From Tagaea sp. (lineage in GTDB: Bacteria; Pseudomonadota; Alphaproteobacteria; CACIAM-22H2): a DNA stretch of 64,000 nt. The DNA lies in NCBI GenBank assembly GCA_965279525.1, contig CBDIIB010000005.1:363998-427997 (forward strand), given 5' to 3'. Positions within the stretch are counted from its first letter, which is position 1, and each line of letters opens with the position of its first letter. Shown one piece after another: positions 6,222 to 58,230 of this stretch. The notes below the pieces were generated by a model. The model was not told the origin of the DNA. It searched no databases and saw only the letters and a program-made list of their open reading frames with translations. The position numbers and the translations under genes are program-made.

Positions 6222-7163
6222 ATGGCGCGCGGCCGGCCGGCAGGTGCGAAAGCCGGCCTGTCGGCGCCCGCGGAAAACTTCATCGAGATGCTGCGCGCGA
6301 CACGCAACGCATCGGCCAATACCGAGCGCGCCTATCGCGGCGACATCGCGGATTACGAAAGCTTCCTCGGGAAACGCGGGGCAAGCGCGCTCGACGTCGA
6401 TGCCGCTGCGGCGCGTGCCTACCTGAAGCAGATCGCACAGGCGGGACTTGCGCCGCGCAGTGCGGCCCGCCGGCTTTCGGCCTTGCGCCAGATGCACCGC
6501 TTCCTCGTCTCCGAAGGGCTGCGCGCCGACGATCCGCTCGCCACGCTGGACGCACCGCGCGTGGGCCGGGCGCTCCCGAAGATCCTGTCGGAGGACGAGG
6601 TGCGCGCCCTCCTCGATGCCGCGAAGGCGCTTGACGGGATCGACGGCACGCGCCTCGTGTGCATCCTCGAGATCCTCTATTCGAGCGGGCTGCGCGTCTC
6701 CGAACTCGCGGGGCTGAAGCTTGCTTCGCTGTCGCGCGACGGGCGCTTCCTGATCGTGCGCGGCAAGGGCGACAAGGAACGCCTGATCCCGCTCGCTGCC
6801 CCGGCCCTTGCCGCCCTCGAAGCGTGGCGGGCCGCCCGCACGCGCGAGTTCCCGCTCGCCGCCAAGTCACGCTTCCTGTTCCCCACGCGCGCCGTCTCCG
6901 GCCACCTGACGCCGGCGCGCATCGCGCAGCTGCTGAAGGCGCTGGCCCCGAAGGCCGGGATCGATCCGCGCCGGCTGTCGCCCCACGTGCTGCGCCATGC
7001 CTTCGCGAGCCATCTCGTCGACCGCGGGGCGGACCTGCGCGCCGTCCAGCAGATGCTGGGCCACGCCGACATCGCGACCACGCAGATCTACACGCATGTC
7101 GGCGGCGAGCGCCTGAAACGCCTTGTCGCCACGCACCATCCGCTTGCCCGTCGGCGCCACTAG
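6222..7163 (+). CDS. xerD: Site-specific tyrosine recombinase XerD
   Basis: Phage-integrase catalytic motifs (RHAFASHL...LGHADIATTQIYTHV), ~313 aa. Start moved to MARGRP at 6222 just after the upstream stop. Confidence 0.75.
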   Translation: MARGRPAGAKAGLSAPAENFIEMLRATRNASANTERAYRGDIADYESFLGKRGASALDVDAAAARAYLKQIAQAGLAPRSAARRLSALRQMHRFLVSEGLRADDPLATLDAPRVGRALPKILSEDEVRALLDAAKALDGIDGTRLVCILEILYSSGLRVSELAGLKLASLSRDGRFLIVRGKGDKERLIPLAAPALAALEAWRAARTREFPLAAKSRFLFPTRAVSGHLTPARIAQLLKALAPKAGIDPRRLSPHVLRHAFASHLVDRGADLRAVQQMLGHADIATTQIYTHVGGERLKRLVATHHPLARRRH

Positions 7164-7204: not shown

Positions 7205-9223
7205 ATGGCCGCGAAGAAGAAGCCCGTCAAGAAAGCCCCCGCCAAGAAGGCCGTCAAGAAGCCTGACCCCAAGAAAGCAGCGGCCAAGAAGCCGGTCGCC
7301 AAGAAGGTGCTGCCCAAAAAGGTCGTCGCCAAAAAGCCGGCGCCCAAGCCGGTCGCGAAGAAGGTCGCCGCCAAGCCGGCCCCCAAGCTGGCGGCCAAGA
7401 AGCCCGCCCCCAAGATCGTCGCGAAGCCGGCGGCAAAGCCGGTCGCCAAAACCGTCGCCGCGAAGCCGATGCCTGTCGCCAAGCCCGTCGCCAAGCCGGT
7501 CGTGGCCGCCAAGCCCGTGCCGGTGGCAAAGCCGGTCGTGGCCAAGCCGGTGGCCCCGCCGCCGCCGCCCAAGCCCGTCGTCAAGCCGCCCGTGAAGGGG
7601 CCCGGCGGCACGGTGCTGCCCGACGACGGCGTCAAGCTCGACGCGAAGATCACGCCCGACCAGCTGACGATCCTCACGCCCGAAGCGCTCGCCTTCGTCG
7701 TCGAGCTCGAGCGCAAGTTCGGTGCCCGCCGCCATGAACTGCTCGCCGCGCGCGTCGAGCGCCAGAAGCGCCTCGATGCCGGCGAGCGGCCCGACTTCCT
7801 GCCGCAGACGCGCTCGGTGCGCGAGGCGGAATGGACCGTGGCCCCGCTGCCCAAGGACATCCTCGACCGCCGCGTCGAGATCACCGGGCCCGTCGACCGC
7901 AAGATGGTCATCAACGCGCTCAACTCCGGCGCCAACGTGTTCATGGCCGATTTCGAGGATGCCTCGACGCCGACCTGGGCCAACCTGATCGAGGGCCACG
8001 TCAACCTGCGCGACGCCAACGCCGGCACGATCGCGTTCACCGATCCCAAGACCGCCAAGGCCTACAAGCTCAACCCCAAGCATGCCGTGCTGTTCGTGCG
8101 CCCGCGCGGCTGGGCGCTGCCCGAGAAGCACCTCACCGTCGACGGCAAGCCGATGTCGGGTTCGCTGTTCGATTTCGGCATGTACTTCTTCCATAACGCC
8201 AAGCAGCTGCTGAAGAAGGGCTCGGGCCCGTATTTCTACCTGCCGAAGATGGAAAGCCATCTCGAAGCGCGCCTGTGGAACGACGTGTTCGTCCACGCGC
8301 AGGAGAAGCTCGGCGTCAAGCGCGGCTCGATCAAGGCAACAGTGTTGATCGAGACGATCCTCGCCGCGTTCGAGATGGACGAGATCCTCAACGAGCTGCG
8401 CGAGCACTCGGCCGGCCTCAATTGCGGGCGCTGGGACTACATCTTCAGTTTCATCAAGAAGTTCGCCGAGCAGCCCAACTACCTGATGCCCGACCGCGGC
8501 CAGGTGACGATGACCTCGCACTTCATGCGCTCGTACAGCCAGCTGCTGATCAAGACGTGCCACCGGCGCAACGTGCACGCGATGGGCGGCATGGCCGCCC
8601 AGATCCCGATCAAGGACGATCCGGCCGCCAACGAGGCCGCGATGGCCAAGGTGCGCGCCGACAAGGACCGCGAGGCGACCGACGGCCACGACGGCACGTG
8701 GGTGGCGCATCCGGGTCTCGTTCCCATCGCCAAGGCGGTGTTCGACGAGAAGATGAAGGACGCCAACCAGATCGCGCGCAAGCGCCAGGACGTGCATGTC
8801 GTGGCGGCCGACCTCATCCAGGTGCCGGCCGGCACGATGACGGAAGCGGGCCTGCGGCAGAACTGCGCGGTGGGCATCGGCTATCTGGAAGCGTGGCTGC
8901 GCGGCCTTGGCTGCGTGCCGCTCTACAACCTGATGGAAGACGCCGCGACCGCCGAGATCAGCCGCGCGCAGGTCTGGCAGCAGCTGCGCCACTCGGCCAC
9001 GCTCGAGGACGGGCGCGCGGTCGACAAGGCGATGATGCGCAAGATCGTCGAGGAGGAACTCGACAAGATCCGCAAGTCGGTCGGCGCCGAACGCTACGGC
9101 AAAGGGCGCTTCAAGGAAGCGGCGAAGATGTTCATCGAGCTGTGCGAGGCCGACCGCTTCCCCGACTTCCTGACGATCCCGGCCTATGACTGGATCATCG
9201 CGAACGAGTCGAAGATCGGGTGA
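7205..9223 (+). CDS. aceB: Malate synthase A with ~130-aa N-terminal Lys/Ala/Pro-rich (histone H1/AlgP-like) repeat extension
   Basis: Residues ~135-672 align to malate synthase A ([63 protein letters not shown]). Residues 1-130 are AKKP/KPVA repeats with no internal Met. Confidence 0.85.
7211..7600 (+). repeat. In-frame tandem degenerate repeats (gccaagaagccg / aagccggtcgcc units) encoding (A/V)KKP and KPVA repeats
   Basis: Visible nucleotide- and protein-level periodicity at the 5' end of aceB. Confidence 0.7.
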
Positions 9224-9232
9224 GGTCCCGGG

Positions 9233-9265
9233 AAACAGGTTACCACCGGTTACGGTAACCTGTTT
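9233..9265. terminator. Perfect 12-bp inverted repeat AAACAGGTTACC-N9-GGTAACCTGTTT 10 nt after the aceB stop. Terminator-like hairpin with no U-tract, or protein-binding palindrome.
   Basis: Read directly: aaacaggttaccaccggttacggtaacctgttt. Confidence 0.45.
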
Positions 9266-9360
9266 ATCCCGCTGGAATCGCTTGCAGGTAACTTCCGTGC
9301 GCGCGGCAACGTATGACTCCGACGTTCAGCATCGCGTGTGCATGCCATTAATTTCGCGGA

Positions 9361-9395
9361 CGGATCGATGCGACACGCGACGTCGCATCGATCCG
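9361..9395. promoter_or_regulatory. 14-bp perfect inverted repeat CGGATCGATGCGAC-N7-GTCGCATCGATCCG
   Basis: Read directly in the low-GC intergenic islet. Could be an operator or strong hairpin. Confidence 0.5.
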
Positions 9396-9442
9396 TCACG
9401 CAAATCTTGCAGTCATATTCGATTGTCAAAGAGCACGTCCCG

Positions 9443-9468
9443 AGGGTGTGAATATATTTACACACCCT
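9443..9468. promoter_or_regulatory. Inverted repeat AGGGTGTG-aatatattta-CACACCCT with AT-rich centre
   Basis: Read directly. 8-bp arms with a 10-nt AT loop, 200 nt upstream of the 9662 gene. Confidence 0.4.
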
Positions 9469-9470
9469 GC

Positions 9471-9500
9471 AATTGTCAAGATAAATAGCCTATAATATTT
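9471..9500 (+). promoter_or_regulatory. Putative sigma70-like promoter (ttgtca ... TATAAT at 9491-9496) for the 9662 gene
   Basis: Consensus -10 hexamer TATAAT. Upstream TTGTCA has suboptimal 12-nt spacing, so the -35 assignment is uncertain. Confidence 0.3.
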
Positions 9501-9503
9501 CCG

Positions 9504-9518
9504 CCGGGACAAGCCCGG
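9504..9518. repeat. Hairpin CCGGG-acaag-CCCGG, copy 1 of a 15-bp motif repeated at 10526-10540
   Basis: Identical 15-mer ccgggacaagcccgg occurs on both sides of the 9662-10450 gene. Confidence 0.5.
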
Positions 9519-9661
9519 TAAAAGTCCAGCCGGGCAATGCCCAATGCCGCGACTTCCGGAACCATCCCTATGGAAGGATGCCGGATACGGCACGCGCGGA
9601 ATTCGACTTGAATTATCCTTAGAGTGTATATAATTCAGCCGGGTAATCTGAGGTGTGTTAA

Positions 9662-10450
9662 ATGCTGAAGACTGTTTGCGTCATCGGTTCGATGCTGATT
9701 TCCGTGCTGGTACCGCAGTGCCTGGCACAGTCGATCCACGAGCAACCAAATGGCACCCGGATCCTCGGAAGCTTCCAACTCGGCTCGGTAACGGTTCCCC
9801 TGCCGCCGGGAGAGTGGGTCCTGAACGGGCGAGGCGTATTCACTGTGAACGCGTCGACCGGTCCTCTTAAGGTCGGCGAAGCCTATCTGTCCGAGTCGAA
9901 AGACGGCAAGGTGACCCGCATCATCTACGCGCGCGCGAATCTGGGCGGGGAATCGACCGGAGGCGGATGGACTCGCGACAGGAACGTCTGCGACCGGGTC
10001 AACGTGATCCACGCCGAGTTCGACCGGCACTTCAATCCCAAGGAAGCCAAGTGCTGGATGGTGACCCATTTCTTCGATGGAACGCCGAACAATCCGTCCG
10101 ACGCCTTCAGGGAATTCTACGCGTCACTCGCACAAAGCAAGCTCGATACGCCGAAGCTGCGCCTCAGTGCGGTCTATTTCCTGACGGACGCGACGAACTT
10201 CGTCTACGTGAACTACGCGTTCAATCCAGAGATCGTCGGCGTTCCGCTGGGAAGTCTCGAGCGCTGGGATTCGAGCGAATGGAATATCTTGCGAATCAAC
10301 CTGTTCCCCGACCGCGTGAAATTCGCCGGAACGATCAAGTCGTTCGGTGAAGCGATGCTTCCCTTCGTCGAAAAAGGCCTGCAAGGCCGCATCAAGGCCG
10401 GCGAGTACGTTCCCGTCACGATCGAAGGCTGGCCGACCGGCGCGCAGTGA
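9662..10450 (+). CDS. Secreted hypothetical protein (262 aa) of unknown function, with signal peptide and atypical lower GC
   Basis: MLKTVCVIGSMLISVLVPQCLAQS signal, SD-like GAGG upstream. Codon usage is A/T-richer than neighbours. No family recognised. Confidence 0.65.
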   Translation: MLKTVCVIGSMLISVLVPQCLAQSIHEQPNGTRILGSFQLGSVTVPLPPGEWVLNGRGVFTVNASTGPLKVGEAYLSESKDGKVTRIIYARANLGGESTGGGWTRDRNVCDRVNVIHAEFDRHFNPKEAKCWMVTHFFDGTPNNPSDAFREFYASLAQSKLDTPKLRLSAVYFLTDATNFVYVNYAFNPEIVGVPLGSLERWDSSEWNILRINLFPDRVKFAGTIKSFGEAMLPFVEKGLQGRIKAGEYVPVTIEGWPTGAQ

Positions 10451-10519
10451 CCGAGGCAGCCTGCCGCCGGCGGCAGACCAATTCCCGTGATCGGCAGGGT
10501 ACTTCATGCAACCGAACTC

Positions 10520-10558
10520 GTGGATGCCCGGGACAAGCCCGGGCATCCACGGCTTTTG
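10520..10558 (+). terminator. Rho-independent terminator: 13-bp stem GTGGATGCCCGGG-acaag-CCCGGGCATCCAC followed by GGCTTTTGTGATTT
   Basis: Perfect stem-loop plus T-rich tail 70 nt after the stop of the 9662 gene. Contains copy 2 of the ccgggacaagcccgg motif. Confidence 0.7.
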
Positions 10559-10564
10559 TGATTT

Positions 10565-11266
10565 CTACCCGCCCGGCTTCAGCGCCGCCGCCCCCATCAC
10601 GCGGCCATCCGCGCCCTGCACGAGCACGGCGAAGCCGGGGCCGGTTTCGGCCGGCACACGCCATTCGCCGGCGACCGTGCCGGCGACGCCCAGCGTTTCG
10701 ACCGAGCGCACGATGTTGGTGTTGGCAAGTGCCCGCCCGCCATTCTCGCCGGTGGTCACGCGCGTGACGTGGGCGGGCACGAACGAAACGAGCTGCACGC
10801 TGGTGCGTCCCATCCCTTCGACCGGCCCGACCTGCACGACGAGCTCGCCCGCCTCGCGCACGAGCTTCACGTCGACGGTCTGGCGGGCGCGCGCCGCCGC
10901 GATCGCGCGCGCGACGGCCCGGCGGTCGGAGCCGACCATCTCGGCCGTGCCGTCCACGACGGCCTGTGGCGTATAGACGGTGCGCAGGCCCAGCCTGTGC
11001 GCGTAGGCACGCTGGCGGGCCGTGGCCATCGGCGAGGAGAACGGGTCCTTCCAGCCGAGCCGGTCCCAGTAATCGACATGGAACGACAGCGCCAGCACGT
11101 CGTCGCGCCGGGCAAGCTCGCCCAGCAGCAGGTCGGCCGGCGGGCAGGACGAACAGCCCTGCGAGGTGAAAAGCTCGACCACGACCGGCCGGTCGGCCGC
11201 CGAAGCCGCAGGGATGGCGCCCAGGGCCGCAAAGCCTGCGAATGCCGCGAGGATATAGCTGTTCAT
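10565..11266 (-). CDS. DUF1223 domain-containing secreted protein
   Basis: MNSYILAAFAGFAALGAIPAASA signal then ELFTSQGCSSCPPAD motif typical of DUF1223. Start set at internal Met (11266). Confidence 0.7.
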   Translation of the reverse strand: MNSYILAAFAGFAALGAIPAASAADRPVVVELFTSQGCSSCPPADLLLGELARRDDVLALSFHVDYWDRLGWKDPFSSPMATARQRAYAHRLGLRTVYTPQAVVDGTAEMVGSDRRAVARAIAAARARQTVDVKLVREAGELVVQVGPVEGMGRTSVQLVSFVPAHVTRVTTGENGGRALANTNIVRSVETLGVAGTVAGEWRVPAETGPGFAVLVQGADGRVMGAAALKPGG

Positions 11267-56276: not shown

Positions 56277-56645
56277 TCAGGCGTCGCCCGCCAACCGCCG
56301 TCCGAACTTTCGTACACACGCCTTGAAACAGCCGACCGGATCGCAGTCGGCATGTTCGACCTGCCCGGCGGCGGGTGCAGGCGGCTGCGCTTCTGCCACC
56401 TGGCTCCCGTTGACAATCCGGACCAGGAGAAAAAGCGCGCCTCCCACCGAGCCGAATATCACCAGTCGCGCGGAGTTCTCGGCCGGAAACAGCTCGAACC
56501 ATGCGCCGATCGCCATGACGATCGCCGCAAATGCGAAAGCGCCAAGCAGCCCTTCCGTCAGAAATTCCAGAAACATCAGCAAGAGCGCCAAAACAACCCA
56601 TGCGCCGATCGGATACTCGTGCAGGTAGGCAATATAACTTTCCAT
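56277..56645 (-). CDS. NfeD-like membrane protein (OB-fold C-terminus)
   Basis: Start at MESYIAYLHEYPIGAWVVLALLLMFLEFL. 2 TM plus soluble C-terminal domain. Lies downstream of the stomatin gene. Confidence 0.5.
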   Translation of the reverse strand: MESYIAYLHEYPIGAWVVLALLLMFLEFLTEGLLGAFAFAAIVMAIGAWFELFPAENSARLVIFGSVGGALFLLVRIVNGSQVAEAQPPAPAAGQVEHADCDPVGCFKACVRKFGRRLAGDA

Positions 56646-56826
56646 TGAATGTCCACCGCAGGTTGGGATGCGAATAGTCGAAAAGGATGCTACCGGAAAT
56701 GGCTTCGACCTGTCCAACAGCTGCGCGCGACGATAGCTGGCAATACCGGGCTACCTCCAAACGACTTGGCCGGCCATGACCGAACCGAAGGAAGCCGCCG
56801 TCGGATGTCGGACTCTTGCGACCCGA

Positions 56827-57036
56827 TCAGGGTGGCGGGTTCCGGCGGACGTATCGCGCGACCGTCGCGTACATGCCGAGGCAAAGCGCCAGGAACACCG
56901 CCACCCTTGCCGCGTGGGATTCAGGGTTGAGTTCGAGCGCTTCGCCGGTCGCGAACAGGAGCAATGCCAGCAGAACGGAAAGTCCGATACGCGTCGACAG
57001 CGGCGAGAACAGCAGCTCGACGATCGGCCAGATCAT
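56827..57036 (-). CDS. Small (69 aa) two-TM membrane protein, hypothetical
   Basis: MIWPIVELLFSPLSTRIGLSVLLALLLFATGEALE... inside the stomatin/NfeD operon. Confidence 0.4.
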   Translation of the reverse strand: MIWPIVELLFSPLSTRIGLSVLLALLLFATGEALELNPESHAARVAVFLALCLGMYATVARYVRRNPPP

Positions 57037-57067
57037 TGCGCCTCGCTCGACCGGACGGGCCGGGAAC

Positions 57068-57349
57068 TCAATAGCGGTTGATGTCCGGCGTCCGGTCCGA
57101 GAACCGGCGCAGCAGCGTGCGCAGCGGCACGATCAGCGCCACACCGATCGCGGCGAAGATGACCAGCTTCAGGAGCAGCGGCTCCGGCAACATGCCGGTC
57201 CACGCACCTGCCGCCATCAGGAAGCCCGCCGTCGCGAACGGCAGGAAGAATCCGATCGTCAGCAGGATCTCGACGACGAGGAACACGACCCCGATCGCCG
57301 CCCACACGACGACCGGATAGTCCGTGAAAACCGCCTCGATGAAGTTCAT
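57068..57349 (-). CDS. NfeD-family short membrane protein
   Basis: 93 aa, 2-3 TM. Start/stop overlap (ATGA) with the stomatin gene, the classic SPFH-NfeD pair. Confidence 0.6.
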   Translation of the reverse strand: MNFIEAVFTDYPVVVWAAIGVVFLVVEILLTIGFFLPFATAGFLMAAGAWTGMLPEPLLLKLVIFAAIGVALIVPLRTLLRRFSDRTPDINRY

Positions 57350-58230
57350 TTCGACCTCAGCGCTTCGAGCACGGTGGCAAGGCTGCCCAGCGACTTCGTG
57401 ATATCGGTCGGGATGACGATGAGCTTGGAGTTTCCGGAGCGCGCGATCTCGGCGATGCTGTGGATCTGCTGCTTCATGATCTCGAAATCGACGGCGGCCT
57501 GTCCGTTCGCCTCGATCGCCTTGCCGACGGATGTCGTCGCGTAGGCTTCGGCGTCGGCAAGCACGCGCCGCGCCTCGGCCTGTTTCTGCGCGGTATAGAA
57601 CTCGCCGTCAGCCTTGTGCTGCTGCGCCTGCCGGTCGCCTTCCGCCTTGGTGACGGCGGCCCGGCGCTCGCGCTCGGCATTGAGCTGCTGCTGCATGGCC
57701 GTGCGCGTCGCGGCGTCGACCGACACGTCGAGCACTTCGGTGCGTGTGATCTCGATGCCCCAAACGGTGCAGGCTTCCGACAGCGAATCCTTGATCTTCT
57801 CGTTGATGAAGTCGCGCTTGGCCTGCACCTCGTCGAACTCCATGTGGCCGCCGGTCGCGCGCACGATGCTCGTCACCGTCGTCTTGACCGCCTGGTCGAC
57901 ATCGGTGATCCGGTAGACCGACTTCGCCGCATCGACGACGCGGAAAAACACCGCCGTCGTCAGGTGGATCTCGACGTTGTCCTTGGTGATGACGCTGATC
58001 TGCTGCGGCTCGAGCTGGCGCTCCAGGATGCTGACCTTCGCCGCGACCCGGTTGAGGATCGGCACGATGAAATTGAGACCGGGCCTCAGCGTGACCGTGT
58101 ACTTGCCGAACTGCTCGACGATGTATTCCTGCGACTGCGGGACGATCTTGATCCCGCTGATCGCGATCAGGACGAAGAGGACAAGAAGGATCAGGAAGAA
58201 GAATTCGGTCGTCAGGGAAACGGCGGACAT
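57346..58230 (-). CDS. SPFH/Band-7 (stomatin-like) protein
   Basis: 294 aa. N-terminal TM. SPFH domain (IVPQSQEYIVEQFGKY...). Coiled-coil C-terminus. Confidence 0.85.
   Translation of the reverse strand: MSAVSLTTEFFFLILLVLFVLIAISGIKIVPQSQEYIVEQFGKYTVTLRPGLNFIVPILNRVAAKVSILERQLEPQQISVITKDNVEIHLTTAVFFRVVDAAKSVYRITDVDQAVKTTVTSIVRATGGHMEFDEVQAKRDFINEKIKDSLSEACTVWGIEITRTEVLDVSVDAATRTAMQQQLNAERERRAAVTKAEGDRQAQQHKADGEFYTAQKQAEARRVLADAEAYATTSVGKAIEANGQAAVDFEIMKQQIHSIAEIARSGNSKLIVIPTDITKSLGSLATVLEALRSK

What the first reader, a model, noticed from the sequence alone, without database searches (positions are those of the whole stretch)
9230..10560. 1.3-kb low-GC islet with one secreted orphan protein, bracketed by a repeated CCGGGACAAGCCCGG hairpin and carrying strong palindromes
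Between aceB and the DUF1223 gene the GC content and codon usage drop markedly. The 262-aa signal-peptide protein (9662-10450) has A/T-richer third positions than every neighbour and matches no family I recognise. The 430-nt leader contains three different palindromes: 12-N9-12 at 9233, a perfect 14-N7-14 at 9361-9395, and 8-N10-8 at 9443. It also has two copies of ATTGTCAA(A/G)A and a TATAAT box. The same 15-mer ccgggacaagcccgg forms a hairpin both upstream (9504-9518) and inside the terminator downstream (10526-10540). This looks like a small horizontally acquired or mobilised cassette whose expression is tightly regulated.
Basis: seen in the sequence. Interest (0 to 1): 0.6.

Follow-up and report, generated by a model that had tools for sequence, protein, structure and literature searches.

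The report
Variable gene slot beside orphan BoxA
The low-GC stretch is not one mobile cassette: it is a recombination-prone gap between two core genes that holds an exported protein of an uncharacterised family, next to an older promoter on the opposite strand that carries the anti-termination signal (BoxA) normally found in ribosomal RNA operons.

Summary
GC falls from about 0.70 to 0.50-0.60. The three longest perfect hairpins of the 64-kb window lie here. The exact 15-mer occurs twice, at 9504-9518 and 10528-10542 (not 10526-10540).

The region is a composite, not one cassette.

(1) The palindromes and both ATTGTCAA boxes belong to an older non-coding module. It is also present in sister genomes that lack the gene, and it reads on the minus strand. 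One box is the -35 of a TTGACA-17-TATATT promoter. The other is the reverse complement of an rrn-type BoxA (TGCTCTTTGACAA), followed by a 16-bp hairpin.

(2) The 262-aa gene has a candidate promoter and RBS of its own, a signal peptide and a conserved Cys pair. It is under purifying selection (dN/dS about 0.2). It matches no Pfam or NCBIfam model, but 443 homologous 50%-identity clusters exist. Its confident model resembles PsbP/Mog1/PknH-sensor folds only weakly.

(3) The aceB-DUF1223 gap varies between relatives. It holds this gene on either side of the module, a higBA-like toxin-antitoxin pair, an ABC transporter, or nothing (15 nt).

(4) The 15-mer is a REP-like hairpin. It is sparse, and I found no mobility gene.

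Overall this is an ordinary accessory-gene slot. The orphan BoxA unit is the interesting part.

The parts
7205..9223 (+). aceB (malate synthase), the left core flank. It carries an N-terminal Lys/Ala/Pro-rich extension of about 140 aa.
   Evidence: Pfam MS_N, MS_TIM-barrel and MS_C. 89-93% aa identity, and the same synteny, in L003-L006.
9233..9265 (.). 12-bp perfect hairpin (AAACAGGTTACC-N9-GGTAACCTGTTT) just after the aceB stop. It is a candidate bidirectional terminator with short T-runs on both strands. It is ancestral, because homologous GGTTACC/GGTAACC hairpins occur in L004 and L083.
   Evidence: hairpin; homologues.
9230..9444 (-). Predicted non-coding transcript of module M (inferred extent). 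It runs from a start near 9444 towards the aceB 3' end.
   Evidence: Promoter position. Strongly structured, z = -4.9, although the plus strand folds equally well. No conserved ORF (sequence inspection). No Rfam family.
9359..9397 (-). 16-N7-16 perfect hairpin 25 nt downstream of BoxA (minus sense). It is conserved in L001 and L002. In L001, two substitutions give C-A mismatches on the plus strand but G-U pairs on the minus strand.
   Evidence: the strand argument comes from the L001 sequence.
It is the centre of the best-conserved non-coding block.
   Evidence: Unique in the window. The same motif lies 30-490 nt upstream of 23S or 16S rRNA genes, in the rRNA sense, in 23 of 110 metagenome matches. 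In 1.48 Mb of alphaproteobacterial loci it occurs only in the M modules of L003 and L004. Mean pairwise identity is 80%, against 38-45% for adjacent blocks.
9451..9479 (-). The 9443-9468 palindrome is centred on the -10, which makes it a possible lineage-specific operator.
   Evidence: It is the only promoter-like hit in 9100-10700, with 11 of 12 matches. The -35 block is conserved in window, L001, L003 and L004. The palindrome is not conserved.
9504..9518 (.). REP-like mini-hairpin (5-bp stem), the upstream copy of the 15-mer. L004 and L001 carry a related CCGG(G)-CCTTCG-CC(C)GG hairpin at the same position after the -35 block.
9608..9655 (+). Candidate promoter of the gene itself (TTGAAT 9608-9613, N15, TATAAT 9629-9634) and its RBS (GAGGTG 9650-9655).
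   Evidence: Read from the sequence. The 15-nt spacer lies outside the scan's 16-18 range, so the scan did not call it. Inferred.
9662..10450 (+). Gene O: a 262-aa exported protein of an uncharacterised family. The signal peptide is about residues 1-22 (9662-9727). The mature part has two Cys, C110 and C131, both conserved in at least 90% of the family.
10519..10551 (.). Full REP-like hairpin (14-bp stem, ACAAG loop) followed by CTTTTGTG. It is terminator-like for gene O and contains the downstream copy of the 15-mer (10528-10542).
   Evidence: Relatives of the hairpin occur in L001, L037, L044, L048 and a Methylosinus plasmid.
10565..11266 (-). DUF1223 gene, the right core flank, convergent with gene O.
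   Evidence: Pfam DUF1223. Synteny in L001, L003-L006 and L083.

Best explanation
The 1.3-kb low-GC stretch is the filling of a recombination-prone gap between two convergent core genes, aceB and the DUF1223 gene, in a Tagaea-like Rhodospirillales lineage. It has two independent parts.

Part 1, module M (about 9230-9480). M is ancestral, non-coding and reads on the minus strand. It has a sigma-70-type promoter (TTGACA-17-TATATT). An rrn-type BoxA (TGCTCTTTGACAA) follows about 10 nt into the predicted transcript, then a 16-bp hairpin. By analogy with rRNA leaders and with the BoxA elements upstream of CRISPR arrays, I infer the following. NusB/NusE bind the BoxA RNA. The elongation complex then resists Rho, so an untranslated, structured RNA can be made. 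That RNA runs towards, and possibly antisense into, the 3' end of aceB.

Part 2, gene O (9662-10450). O has a candidate promoter and RBS of its own, and a REP-hairpin terminator. It encodes a Sec-exported protein, probably disulfide-bonded, with an alpha/beta sandwich fold of the PsbP/Mog1/PknH-sensor type. This suggests a binding or sensing protein of the cell envelope rather than an enzyme (inferred, low confidence). O is a long-standing accessory resident of the slot. It has been reshuffled or replaced by recombination between lineages. It is not a recently arrived mobile cassette.

The repeated 15-mer is the core of a REP-like hairpin. One copy is a truncated remnant at an ancestral REP position. 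The other is the terminator. Their identical loops point to local duplication or gene conversion, which may mark the breakpoints of the rearrangement that placed O to the right of M.

Shown: the anatomy, the conservation, the variability of the slot, the identity of the BoxA sequence, purifying selection on O, and the fold model. Inferred: transcription of M, Nus binding and antitermination, export and function of O, and the recombination history.
For: Variable slot. Synteny xerD-aceB-[gap]-DUF1223-HpcH-accA holds in L001 and L003-L006. The gap is 15 nt in L006, about 1.1 kb in L003 and L004 (a Gp49/HTH_37 toxin-antitoxin pair), and about 3 kb in L005 (an ABC sugar transporter). O lies in the same gap in L001 and L083; the short L002 contig shows only O followed by M.

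M is independent of O. M lies upstream of O in the window and in L083. It lies downstream of O in L001 and L002. It is present without O in L003 and L004.

Promoter. The only promoter-like hit in the region is on the minus strand, with 11 of 12 matches.

BoxA. The 13-mer is exact and unique in 64 kb. It matches the E. coli rrn BoxA TGCTCTTTAACAA at 12 of 13 positions (own knowledge) and the published gamma-proteobacterial consensus GYTCTTTAANA at 10 of 11 (PMC5725501). The same 21-23-mer lies 30-490 nt upstream of rRNA genes in 23 of 110 metagenome matches, in the rRNA sense in all 23. It is absent from 1.48 Mb of other alphaproteobacterial loci except the M modules. It is the best-conserved intergenic block, at 80% against 38-45%. 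In L001 the hairpin keeps pairing only as minus-strand RNA, through G-U pairs. BoxA-dependent protection of long untranslated RNAs from Rho is documented (PMC7665894, PMC5725501).

No mobility signature. There is no plasmid or phage relative, and the window has no tRNA or other Rfam hit.
Against: There are no expression data. The promoter is only a consensus match, and its -10 is poorly conserved in L003, L004 and L083.

L001 has T at BoxA position 4 (GCTTTTTGACAG). In E. coli suhB, a C4T/T6C double mutation abolished SuhB association with the boxA (PMC5725501).

Both strands fold equally well. The hairpins downstream of BoxA are not homologous across all loci, so no covariation test was possible.

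There is no obvious product or target for the M transcript. In L001 and L002 it points at O rather than at aceB.

The O tree is congruent with the flank tree. This fits simple vertical descent with fast evolution as well as it fits recombinational exchange.
Confidence: 0.55

Rival explanations
1. The whole interval 9230-10560 is one small horizontally acquired or mobilised cassette. It is bounded by the repeated 15-mer hairpin, and its palindrome-rich 430-nt leader tightly regulates the secreted protein.
For: The exact 15-mer copies bracket O and its candidate promoter (a 1009-nt interval) and are non-random. O is compositionally deviant and patchy. In L001 two REP hairpins sit side by side in inverted orientation, exactly where O sits in the window.
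Against: The palindromes and boxes lie outside the 15-mer pair. They are conserved in genomes without O, and downstream of O in L001 and L002. They read as a promoter plus BoxA on the other strand. The sequences immediately flanking the two 15-mers differ, so this is not a target-site duplication. No recombinase or transposase lies inside. The nearby xerD is a conserved core gene. O has no relatives on plasmids or phages. Four diverged alleles occupy the same gap.
Confidence: 0.1
2. O is simply an ancestral, vertically inherited, fast-evolving gene of the clade. It was lost or overwritten in some lineages, and its different position relative to M reflects one local rearrangement. No inter-lineage exchange is involved. 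The low GC3 reflects weak codon selection or selection for AT-richness.
For: O is present in both sub-branches of the clade, (window, L001) and L083. O distances are congruent and roughly proportional with DUF1223 distances: the dN ratio of window-L083 to window-L001 is about 1.7 for both genes. Composition is the same in all four alleles.
Against: Synonymous divergence of O is 0.9-1.6 (pS 0.52-0.66), against 0.2-0.5 for aceB, HpcH and the DUF1223 tail in the same genome pairs. The intergenic module is a mosaic. The window groups with L004 and L083 in the distal part but with L001 and L002 in the hairpin part, which shows recombination in this gap. L083 and L004 are nearest neighbours by flank (93%), yet they carry O and the toxin-antitoxin pair respectively.
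Confidence: 0.3
3. The TTGTCAA boxes and palindromes are DNA-level protein-binding sites. They would be operators for a transcription factor, or a recombination site acting on the neighbouring cargo. No RNA element is involved, and the BoxA match is coincidental or a dead fragment of an rrn leader.
For: The two boxes are direct repeats 50 bp apart, about five helical turns. The palindromes are perfect at the DNA level, and both strands fold equally. Cargo lies immediately beyond the -35 block in the window, L003, L004 and L083. A plus-strand TATAAT/TATGAT/TATACT follows the second box where cargo is downstream and reads TATCCG in L001, where it is not.
Against: The conserved block extends over the full BoxA and its rrn-typical TGAATA flank, not just TTGTCAA. 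The BoxA 11-mer is otherwise absent from 1.48 Mb of comparable DNA. The palindromes themselves are not conserved between lineages. G-U compensation in L001 favours minus-strand RNA. Each cargo appears to bring its own promoter. There is no resemblance to dif or attC core sites (by inspection).
Confidence: 0.15

Closest known systems
BoxA / Nus-factor antitermination elements: rrn leader and spacer BoxA, the suhB 5'-UTR BoxA, and the BoxA upstream of CRISPR arrays (PMC5725501, PMC7665894, PMC4807359)
   Same: The sequence is the same: TGCTCTTTGACAA against E. coli rrn TGCTCTTTAACAA. It is identical, including the TGAATA flank, to BoxAs found upstream of 23S and 16S genes in metagenomes. It is placed shortly downstream of a promoter-like site in an apparently untranslated unit, as with CRISPR leaders.
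   Different: It is not in an rRNA operon, since the window has no rRNA. It is not upstream of a Nus-factor gene or a CRISPR array. The unit is convergent with a metabolic gene (aceB) and sits in a variable slot. Function is untested, and one lineage (L001) carries a substitution at a position that is critical in E. coli.
REP / BIME / REPIN extragenic palindromes
   Same: GC-rich imperfect palindromes of about 33 nt lie in intergenic DNA at gene ends and can act as terminators. L001 has an inverted doublet like a REPIN. Related hairpins occur in other Alphaproteobacteria.
   Different: Density is very low here: one full and one truncated copy in 64 kb, none in 80 kb from the four closest genomes, and 4 in 1.49 Mb. 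I did not look for a RAYT transposase. A whole-genome copy number is not available.
Chromosomal accessory-gene hotspots between conserved core genes (small genomic islets)
   Same: The core flanks are the same and the content differs between relatives: O, a toxin-antitoxin pair, a transporter, or nothing. GC is lower, and the intergenic DNA is a mosaic.
   Different: The slot holds a single gene. There is no integrase, tRNA or insertion sequence. The same gene family recurs in four lineages at slightly different insertion points.
PsbP / Mog1 / PknH-sensor / DcrB / LpqN-type extracytoplasmic alpha-beta sandwich proteins
   Different: There is no detectable sequence relationship. Z stays below 8, and Foldseek finds nothing significant. 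About half of the protein, including the long C-terminal helix, lies outside the aligned core. The conserved Cys, Arg, His and Trp positions are specific to this family.

Membership tests
rrn-type BoxA (NusB/NusE binding site) | Sequence matches the BoxA consensus | tested here: met
   TGCTCTTTGACAA on the minus strand at 9435-9423. It matches E. coli rrn BoxA at 12 of 13 positions (own knowledge) and GYTCTTTAANA at 10 of 11 (PMC5725501). It is identical to the motifs upstream of rRNA genes.
rrn-type BoxA (NusB/NusE binding site) | Lies in the transcribed strand downstream of a promoter | tested here: inconclusive
   A TTGACA-17-TATATT site lies 16 nt upstream on the same strand. This is a consensus match only, and the -10 is weak in L003, L004 and L083. 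There are no transcript data.
rrn-type BoxA (NusB/NusE binding site) | Evolutionary conservation as a discrete element | tested here: met
   80% mean pairwise identity across 5 loci, against 38-45% for flanking intergenic blocks. It is absent elsewhere in 1.48 Mb of related DNA.
rrn-type BoxA (NusB/NusE binding site) | Binds NusB/NusE and confers resistance to Rho | not testable with these tools
   This needs RNA-binding, ChIP, boxA-mutant or bicyclomycin experiments.
rRNA operon leader or spacer | An rRNA gene lies downstream | tested here: not met
   No Rfam family reaches its gathering score anywhere in the 64-kb window.
REP / REPIN elements | Short GC-rich imperfect palindrome in extragenic DNA | tested here: met
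   A 14-bp stem at 10519-10551 and a 5-bp stem at 9504-9518. L001 has an inverted doublet.
REP / REPIN elements | High copy number dispersed through the genome | tested here: inconclusive
   Only these two copies occur in 64 kb. There are 4 strict matches in 1.49 Mb of alphaproteobacterial loci and none in L003-L006. The whole genome was not available.
REP / REPIN elements | Cognate RAYT (Y1) transposase in the genome | not tested
Mobile gene cassette or genomic islet | Deviant composition and patchy distribution | tested here: met
Mobile gene cassette or genomic islet | Own mobility gene, or adjacency to a tRNA or att site | tested here: not met
   O is the only ORF with coding-like properties in the interval. 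xerD, 2 kb away, is a conserved core gene. There is no tRNA.
Mobile gene cassette or genomic islet | Flanking direct repeats that behave as a target-site duplication or cassette ends | tested here: not met
   The 15-mer is duplicated, but the adjacent bases differ (TTTCCG|...|TAAAAG against GGATGC|...|GCATCC). The upstream copy sits at an ancestral REP position.
Mobile gene cassette or genomic islet | Relatives carried on plasmids or phages | tested here: not met
   tblastn found no match at E<=1e-3 in 72,556 plasmids or in 50,697 phages.
Sec-exported protein | N-terminal signal peptide with n, h and c regions | tested here: met
   K3, a hydrophobic core at residues 4-18 (Kyte-Doolittle up to 2.65), and C-L-A followed by QS at 20-24. 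The conserved mature N-terminus is QSIHEQ. No dedicated predictor was available.
PsbP/Mog1-like fold | Significant structural superposition | tested here: inconclusive

The most novel reading that the evidence does not exclude
Module M is a dedicated transcription unit that uses an rRNA-type BoxA to make a Rho-resistant non-coding RNA. Either this RNA reads antisense into aceB and so controls the glyoxylate-shunt gene by transcriptional interference or RNase III cleavage, or it acts as a Nus-factor decoy. The adjacent cargo slot may be kept open because the strongly structured, recombination-prone module provides breakpoints. This would be the first BoxA-dependent antisense or regulatory RNA tied to central carbon metabolism in an alphaproteobacterium.
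Probability: 0.2. Interest if true: 0.6.

Novelty: new member of a known kind. Interest (0 to 1): 0.38.

Why it matters
The practical value is corrective. A compositional 'islet' bracketed by a repeat looks like a mobile cassette. Comparison with six related loci shows instead an accessory-gene slot whose most striking sequence features belong to a different, older element on the other strand.

Two leads are worth keeping.

(1) M is a clade-conserved, stand-alone promoter-BoxA-hairpin unit outside any rRNA operon. Non-rRNA BoxA targets are documented mainly in gamma-proteobacteria and upstream of CRISPR arrays. A case convergent with aceB would extend Nus-factor regulation to non-coding or antisense RNA in Alphaproteobacteria.

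(2) O belongs to an exported protein family with at least 443 clusters at 50% identity. The family has invariant Cys, Arg, His and Trp positions, no curated model and no close structural relative. It is a candidate for a new domain family.

Tried and rejected
Word-indexed homologue search. It gave only 2 relatives of O, and only 5 even with an 84-sequence profile. The exhaustive HMMER scan was needed.

AF2 with 3 sequences. It failed, at pLDDT 42.7. The 84-sequence alignment was used instead.

AFDB Foldseek. The library was unavailable.

Rfam, both on the region at E<=1 and on the whole window at gathering score. Nothing relevant appeared. The weak gyrA and sX6 hits fall on the REP hairpin and are far below threshold.

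Metagenome scan with the core of M. It returned no further aceB, O or DUF1223 loci. It did reveal the BoxA identity.

Small ORF. ATGACTGCAAGATTTGCGTGA (MTARFA*), just after BoxA on the minus strand, is not conserved: there is no ATG in L003 and the frame differs in L004.

Integron attC reading of the GTTGACG/CGTCAAC repeats in L001 and L003. The repeats do not fit GTTRRRY, and there is no intI. By inspection only.

XerCD dif or IMEX site at the 9443-9468 palindrome. There is no XerD-arm similarity (by inspection), and xerD is a conserved core gene.

Plus-strand promoter made of TTGTCA and TATAAT (9474-9496). The spacer is only 12 nt.

Target-site duplication model for the 15-mer. The flanks differ.

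Toxin-antitoxin or O remnants elsewhere in the window. None were found.

RNA folding to decide the strand. It was uninformative, because both strands give z of about -5.
Full report
OBSERVATION. The window is high-GC alphaproteobacterial DNA (GC 0.68). The layout is xerD 6255-7163(+), aceB 7205-9223(+), a 438-nt intergenic stretch, ORF O 9662-10450(+), a 114-nt gap, DUF1223 10565-11266(-), an HpcH-type lyase gene, and accA. GC in 300-nt windows drops to 0.50-0.62 across 9200-10550, against 0.66-0.74 on both sides. O has GC3 0.77, against 0.87-0.93 for its neighbours.

All the listed palindromes are present. The central one is a perfect 16-N7-16 at 9359-9397, not 14-N7-14. Only six perfect hairpins with stems of 10 bp or more exist in the 64 kb, and the three longest are all in this interval.

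The 15-mer CCGGGACAAGCCCGG is exact at 9504-9518 and 10528-10542. There is no third copy even when two mismatches are allowed. An exact 15-mer repeat arose in 2 of 5000 shuffles of the region.

THE GENE. O has no Pfam or NCBIfam match. The word-indexed search of 5.8 billion proteins gave only two relatives, at 67-69% identity. An exhaustive HMMER profile scan of 1.84 billion cluster representatives found 443 proteins at E<=1e-3 and 186 at E<=1e-10, mostly 230-310 aa long. In an 84-sequence alignment, thirteen positions are at least 90% conserved: L47, P48, G50, W52, L76, C110, R112, C131, H136, P189, G193, W202 and W207. Some relatives carry a C-terminal SHOCT domain, or have a SHOCT protein next door.

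Four alleles from the same genomic gap (window, L001, L002, L083) give dN/dS of 0.16-0.29, so O is a real gene under purifying selection. The N-terminus has a Lys, a 15-residue hydrophobic core and a C-L-A|QS site. The mature protein has exactly two Cys, both family-conserved. This fits Sec export and a periplasmic disulfide (inference).

Contexts of distant relatives are heterogeneous. One is directly downstream of a PG_binding_1 + FGE-sulfatase gene in two contigs, and the others show no common partner. My best guess is an envelope binding or sensor-like protein, with low confidence.

THE LOCUS IN RELATIVES. A DUF1223-anchored scan of one genome per species returned no copy of the source genome. 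The closest are Tagaea sp. MAGs at 71-74% aa identity (taxonomy). Four genomes keep the order xerD-aceB-[gap]-DUF1223-HpcH-accA. The gap differs between them:
- L006: 15 nt.
- L003 and L004: about 1.1 kb, holding a Gp49-like toxin plus an HTH_37 antitoxin.
- L005: about 3 kb, holding an ABC sugar transporter.

O occupies the gap in the window, in L001 (an ENA contig) and in L083 (a Logan contig, 50% aa identity). It is also present in the short L002 contig.

By the last 270 nt of aceB, the window pairs with L001 (95%) and L083 pairs with L004 (93%). O and the toxin-antitoxin pair are therefore interleaved on the tree. All four O alleles have GC 0.59-0.60 and GC3 0.74-0.77, next to flanks with GC3 of about 0.9. 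Synonymous divergence of O is 0.9-1.6, against 0.2-0.5 for aceB, HpcH and the DUF1223 tail in the same pairs. However, O distances are congruent and proportional with DUF1223 distances. I therefore cannot separate 'vertical descent but fast evolution' from 'exchanged between lineages'. O has no relatives in the plasmid or phage collections.

THE 'LEADER' IS A SEPARATE, OLDER MODULE. Window 9320-9493 matches L001 1603-1774 at 82% identity and L002 1006-1110 at 81%. In those two loci the segment lies downstream of O, not upstream. The same module follows aceB in L003 and L004, where O is absent, and in L083. It therefore belongs to the locus, not to the gene.

The only promoter-like site in 9100-10700 is on the minus strand: TTGACA (9479-9474), a 17-nt spacer, and TATATT (9456-9451), with 11 of 12 matches.

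I scanned metagenomes with the most conserved core, TATTCNNNTGTCAAANAGCACNT. There were 110 matches. None was linked to aceB, O or DUF1223, but the free positions were strongly non-random. Rfam placed 11 of 20 sampled loci in rRNA operons. A blastn census found an rRNA gene 30-490 nt downstream in 23 of 110 matches (19 are 23S and 4 are 16S), in the sense of the reverse complement of the motif in all 23.

That reverse complement, (A/G)TGCTCTTTGACAA(N)TGAATA, is the rrn BoxA. The E. coli rrn BoxA is TGCTCTTTAACAA (own knowledge), and the published gamma-proteobacterial consensus is GYTCTTTAANA (PMC5725501). In the window the 13-mer TGCTCTTTGACAA lies on the minus strand at 9435-9423 and is unique. 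Loci L134 and L187 carry the identical TATTCGATTGTCAAAGAGCAC 218 nt upstream of a 23S gene.

In 1.48 Mb of other alphaproteobacterial loci, the BoxA 11-mer occurs only in the M modules of L003 and L004. Across five loci the BoxA block is 80% identical on average, against 38-45% for the adjoining intergenic blocks.

The 16-bp hairpin begins 25 nt after BoxA (minus sense). In L001 two substitutions turn two of its pairs into C-A on the plus strand but G-U on the minus strand. This small piece of evidence favours a minus-strand RNA. Folding energy is equally extreme on both strands and does not discriminate. There is no rRNA, tRNA or other Rfam family in the window.

MECHANISM. The following is inferred. 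RNA polymerase starts near 9444 on the minus strand. BoxA emerges at about +10 and recruits NusB/NusE and the other Nus factors. The resulting complex resists Rho. Rho normally aborts untranslated RNA, and BoxA is known to counteract this for rRNA and for CRISPR arrays (PMC7665894, PMC4807359, PMC5725501). The result would be a structured non-coding RNA that runs through the hairpins towards, and perhaps antisense into, the 3' end of aceB. In L001 and L002 it would run into O.

There are caveats. The -10 is weak in L003, L004 and L083. L001 has a T at BoxA position 4; in E. coli suhB a C4T/T6C double mutation abolished SuhB association (PMC5725501). No target is known.

THE 15-MER. The downstream copy is the core of a 33-nt hairpin, CGTGGATGCCCGGG-ACAAG-CCCGGGCATCCACG, followed by CTTTTGTG. 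This is a terminator-like site for O. Relatives of the hairpin occur in L001, L037, L044, L048 and a Methylosinus plasmid. It is therefore a REP-type element, but a sparse one: one full copy in 64 kb, none in L003-L006, and four in 1.49 Mb.

The upstream copy keeps only the 5-bp inner stem. L004 (CGCCGGGCCTTCGCCCGG) and L001 have a related hairpin at the same place, right after the -35 block. In L001 two REPs lie 11 nt apart in inverted orientation. In the window, O and its candidate promoter (1009 nt) lie between the two.

The identical ACAAG loops suggest local duplication or gene conversion linked to the rearrangement that put O to the right of M. The bases flanking the two copies differ, so this is not a target-site duplication. 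The intergenic module is itself a mosaic: the window resembles L004 and L083 distally, and L001 and L002 proximally. That mosaic is direct evidence of recombination in this gap.

VERDICT. The sequence features are real and statistically unusual, but the single-cassette reading is only partly right. The interval is an accessory-gene slot between core genes. It currently holds an exported protein of an uncharacterised family. Next to it lies an ancestral promoter-BoxA-hairpin unit on the opposite strand. The slot and the REP hairpins are ordinary. The orphan BoxA unit and the uncurated protein family are modestly novel leads that need transcript and binding data.

Noticed in passing
window 7205-7620 (aceB N-terminus); also L003 11842-13830 and L005 13681-15651: Malate synthase carries an N-terminal Lys/Ala/Pro-rich, histone-H1-like extension of about 140 aa. 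It gives a weak Pfam HC2 hit (E = 1e-4, below the family cut-off). The extension is conserved in the Tagaea MAG and in the more distant L005. This is unusual for AceB.
   Followed up: partly
L090 2813-2835, and about 30 near-identical soil metagenome contigs (e.g. L094, L101, L110, L115): A BoxA-like motif (ATGTGCTGTTTGACAAGTGAATA) recurs with conserved flanks and no rRNA gene in the 2.8 kb downstream. The next ORF in L090 looked to me like an MFS-type transporter; no family search was run on it. This may be another non-rRNA BoxA locus in soil Alphaproteobacteria.
   Followed up: partly
L001 1440-1640; L003 11700-11840 (shown reversed); L002 925-1000: These loci have a different distal segment from the window. 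It is rich in GTTGACG/CGTCAAC repeats and palindromes (for example CTGTTGACGG-N7-CCGTCAACAG). It also contains a second copy of the post-BoxA unit GCAAGATTTGG-TTGACGG plus a hairpin. Function is unknown.
   Followed up: no
window 10533-10537 against L001 1857-1861: The loop of the REP hairpin next to DUF1223 reads ACAAG in the window and CTTGA in L001. CTTGA differs by one base from CTTGT, the reverse complement of ACAAG. The stems and the 3' flank are the same. This looks like a hairpin-loop inversion.
   Followed up: no
L001 about 2084-2100 (DUF1223 gene): The DUF1223 orthologue in the ENA contig has an in-frame stop, so it was called as two genes of 64 and 162 aa. It is either a pseudogene or an assembly error.
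   Followed up: no
window 56277-56750(-) and 56780-57544(+): Two further ORFs have even lower GC3 (0.67 and 0.75) and no Pfam match. This may be another accessory islet.
   Followed up: partly
window 9527-9538 and 9636-9647: A 12-nt direct repeat, CAGCCGGGCAAT / CAGCCGGGTAAT, brackets the candidate promoter of O with a spacing of 109 nt. I have no explanation for it.
   Followed up: no
L084 229-2449 and L085 2-2042: A distant O-family member (P0007, 37% identity) lies immediately downstream of a PG_binding_1 + FGE-sulfatase gene, with a 1-nt gap, in two independent contigs. Other members are fused to a SHOCT domain or adjacent to a SHOCT protein. These are the only contextual hints to function.
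   Followed up: partly
L003 11470-11500 and L004 11455-11490 (upstream of higB): The toxin-antitoxin cargo brings its own promoter and operator palindrome (TTGAGC-N17-TATATA, overlapping ATATATGTCAAATTTGATATAT). This shows that cargo in this slot is self-contained.
   Followed up: no
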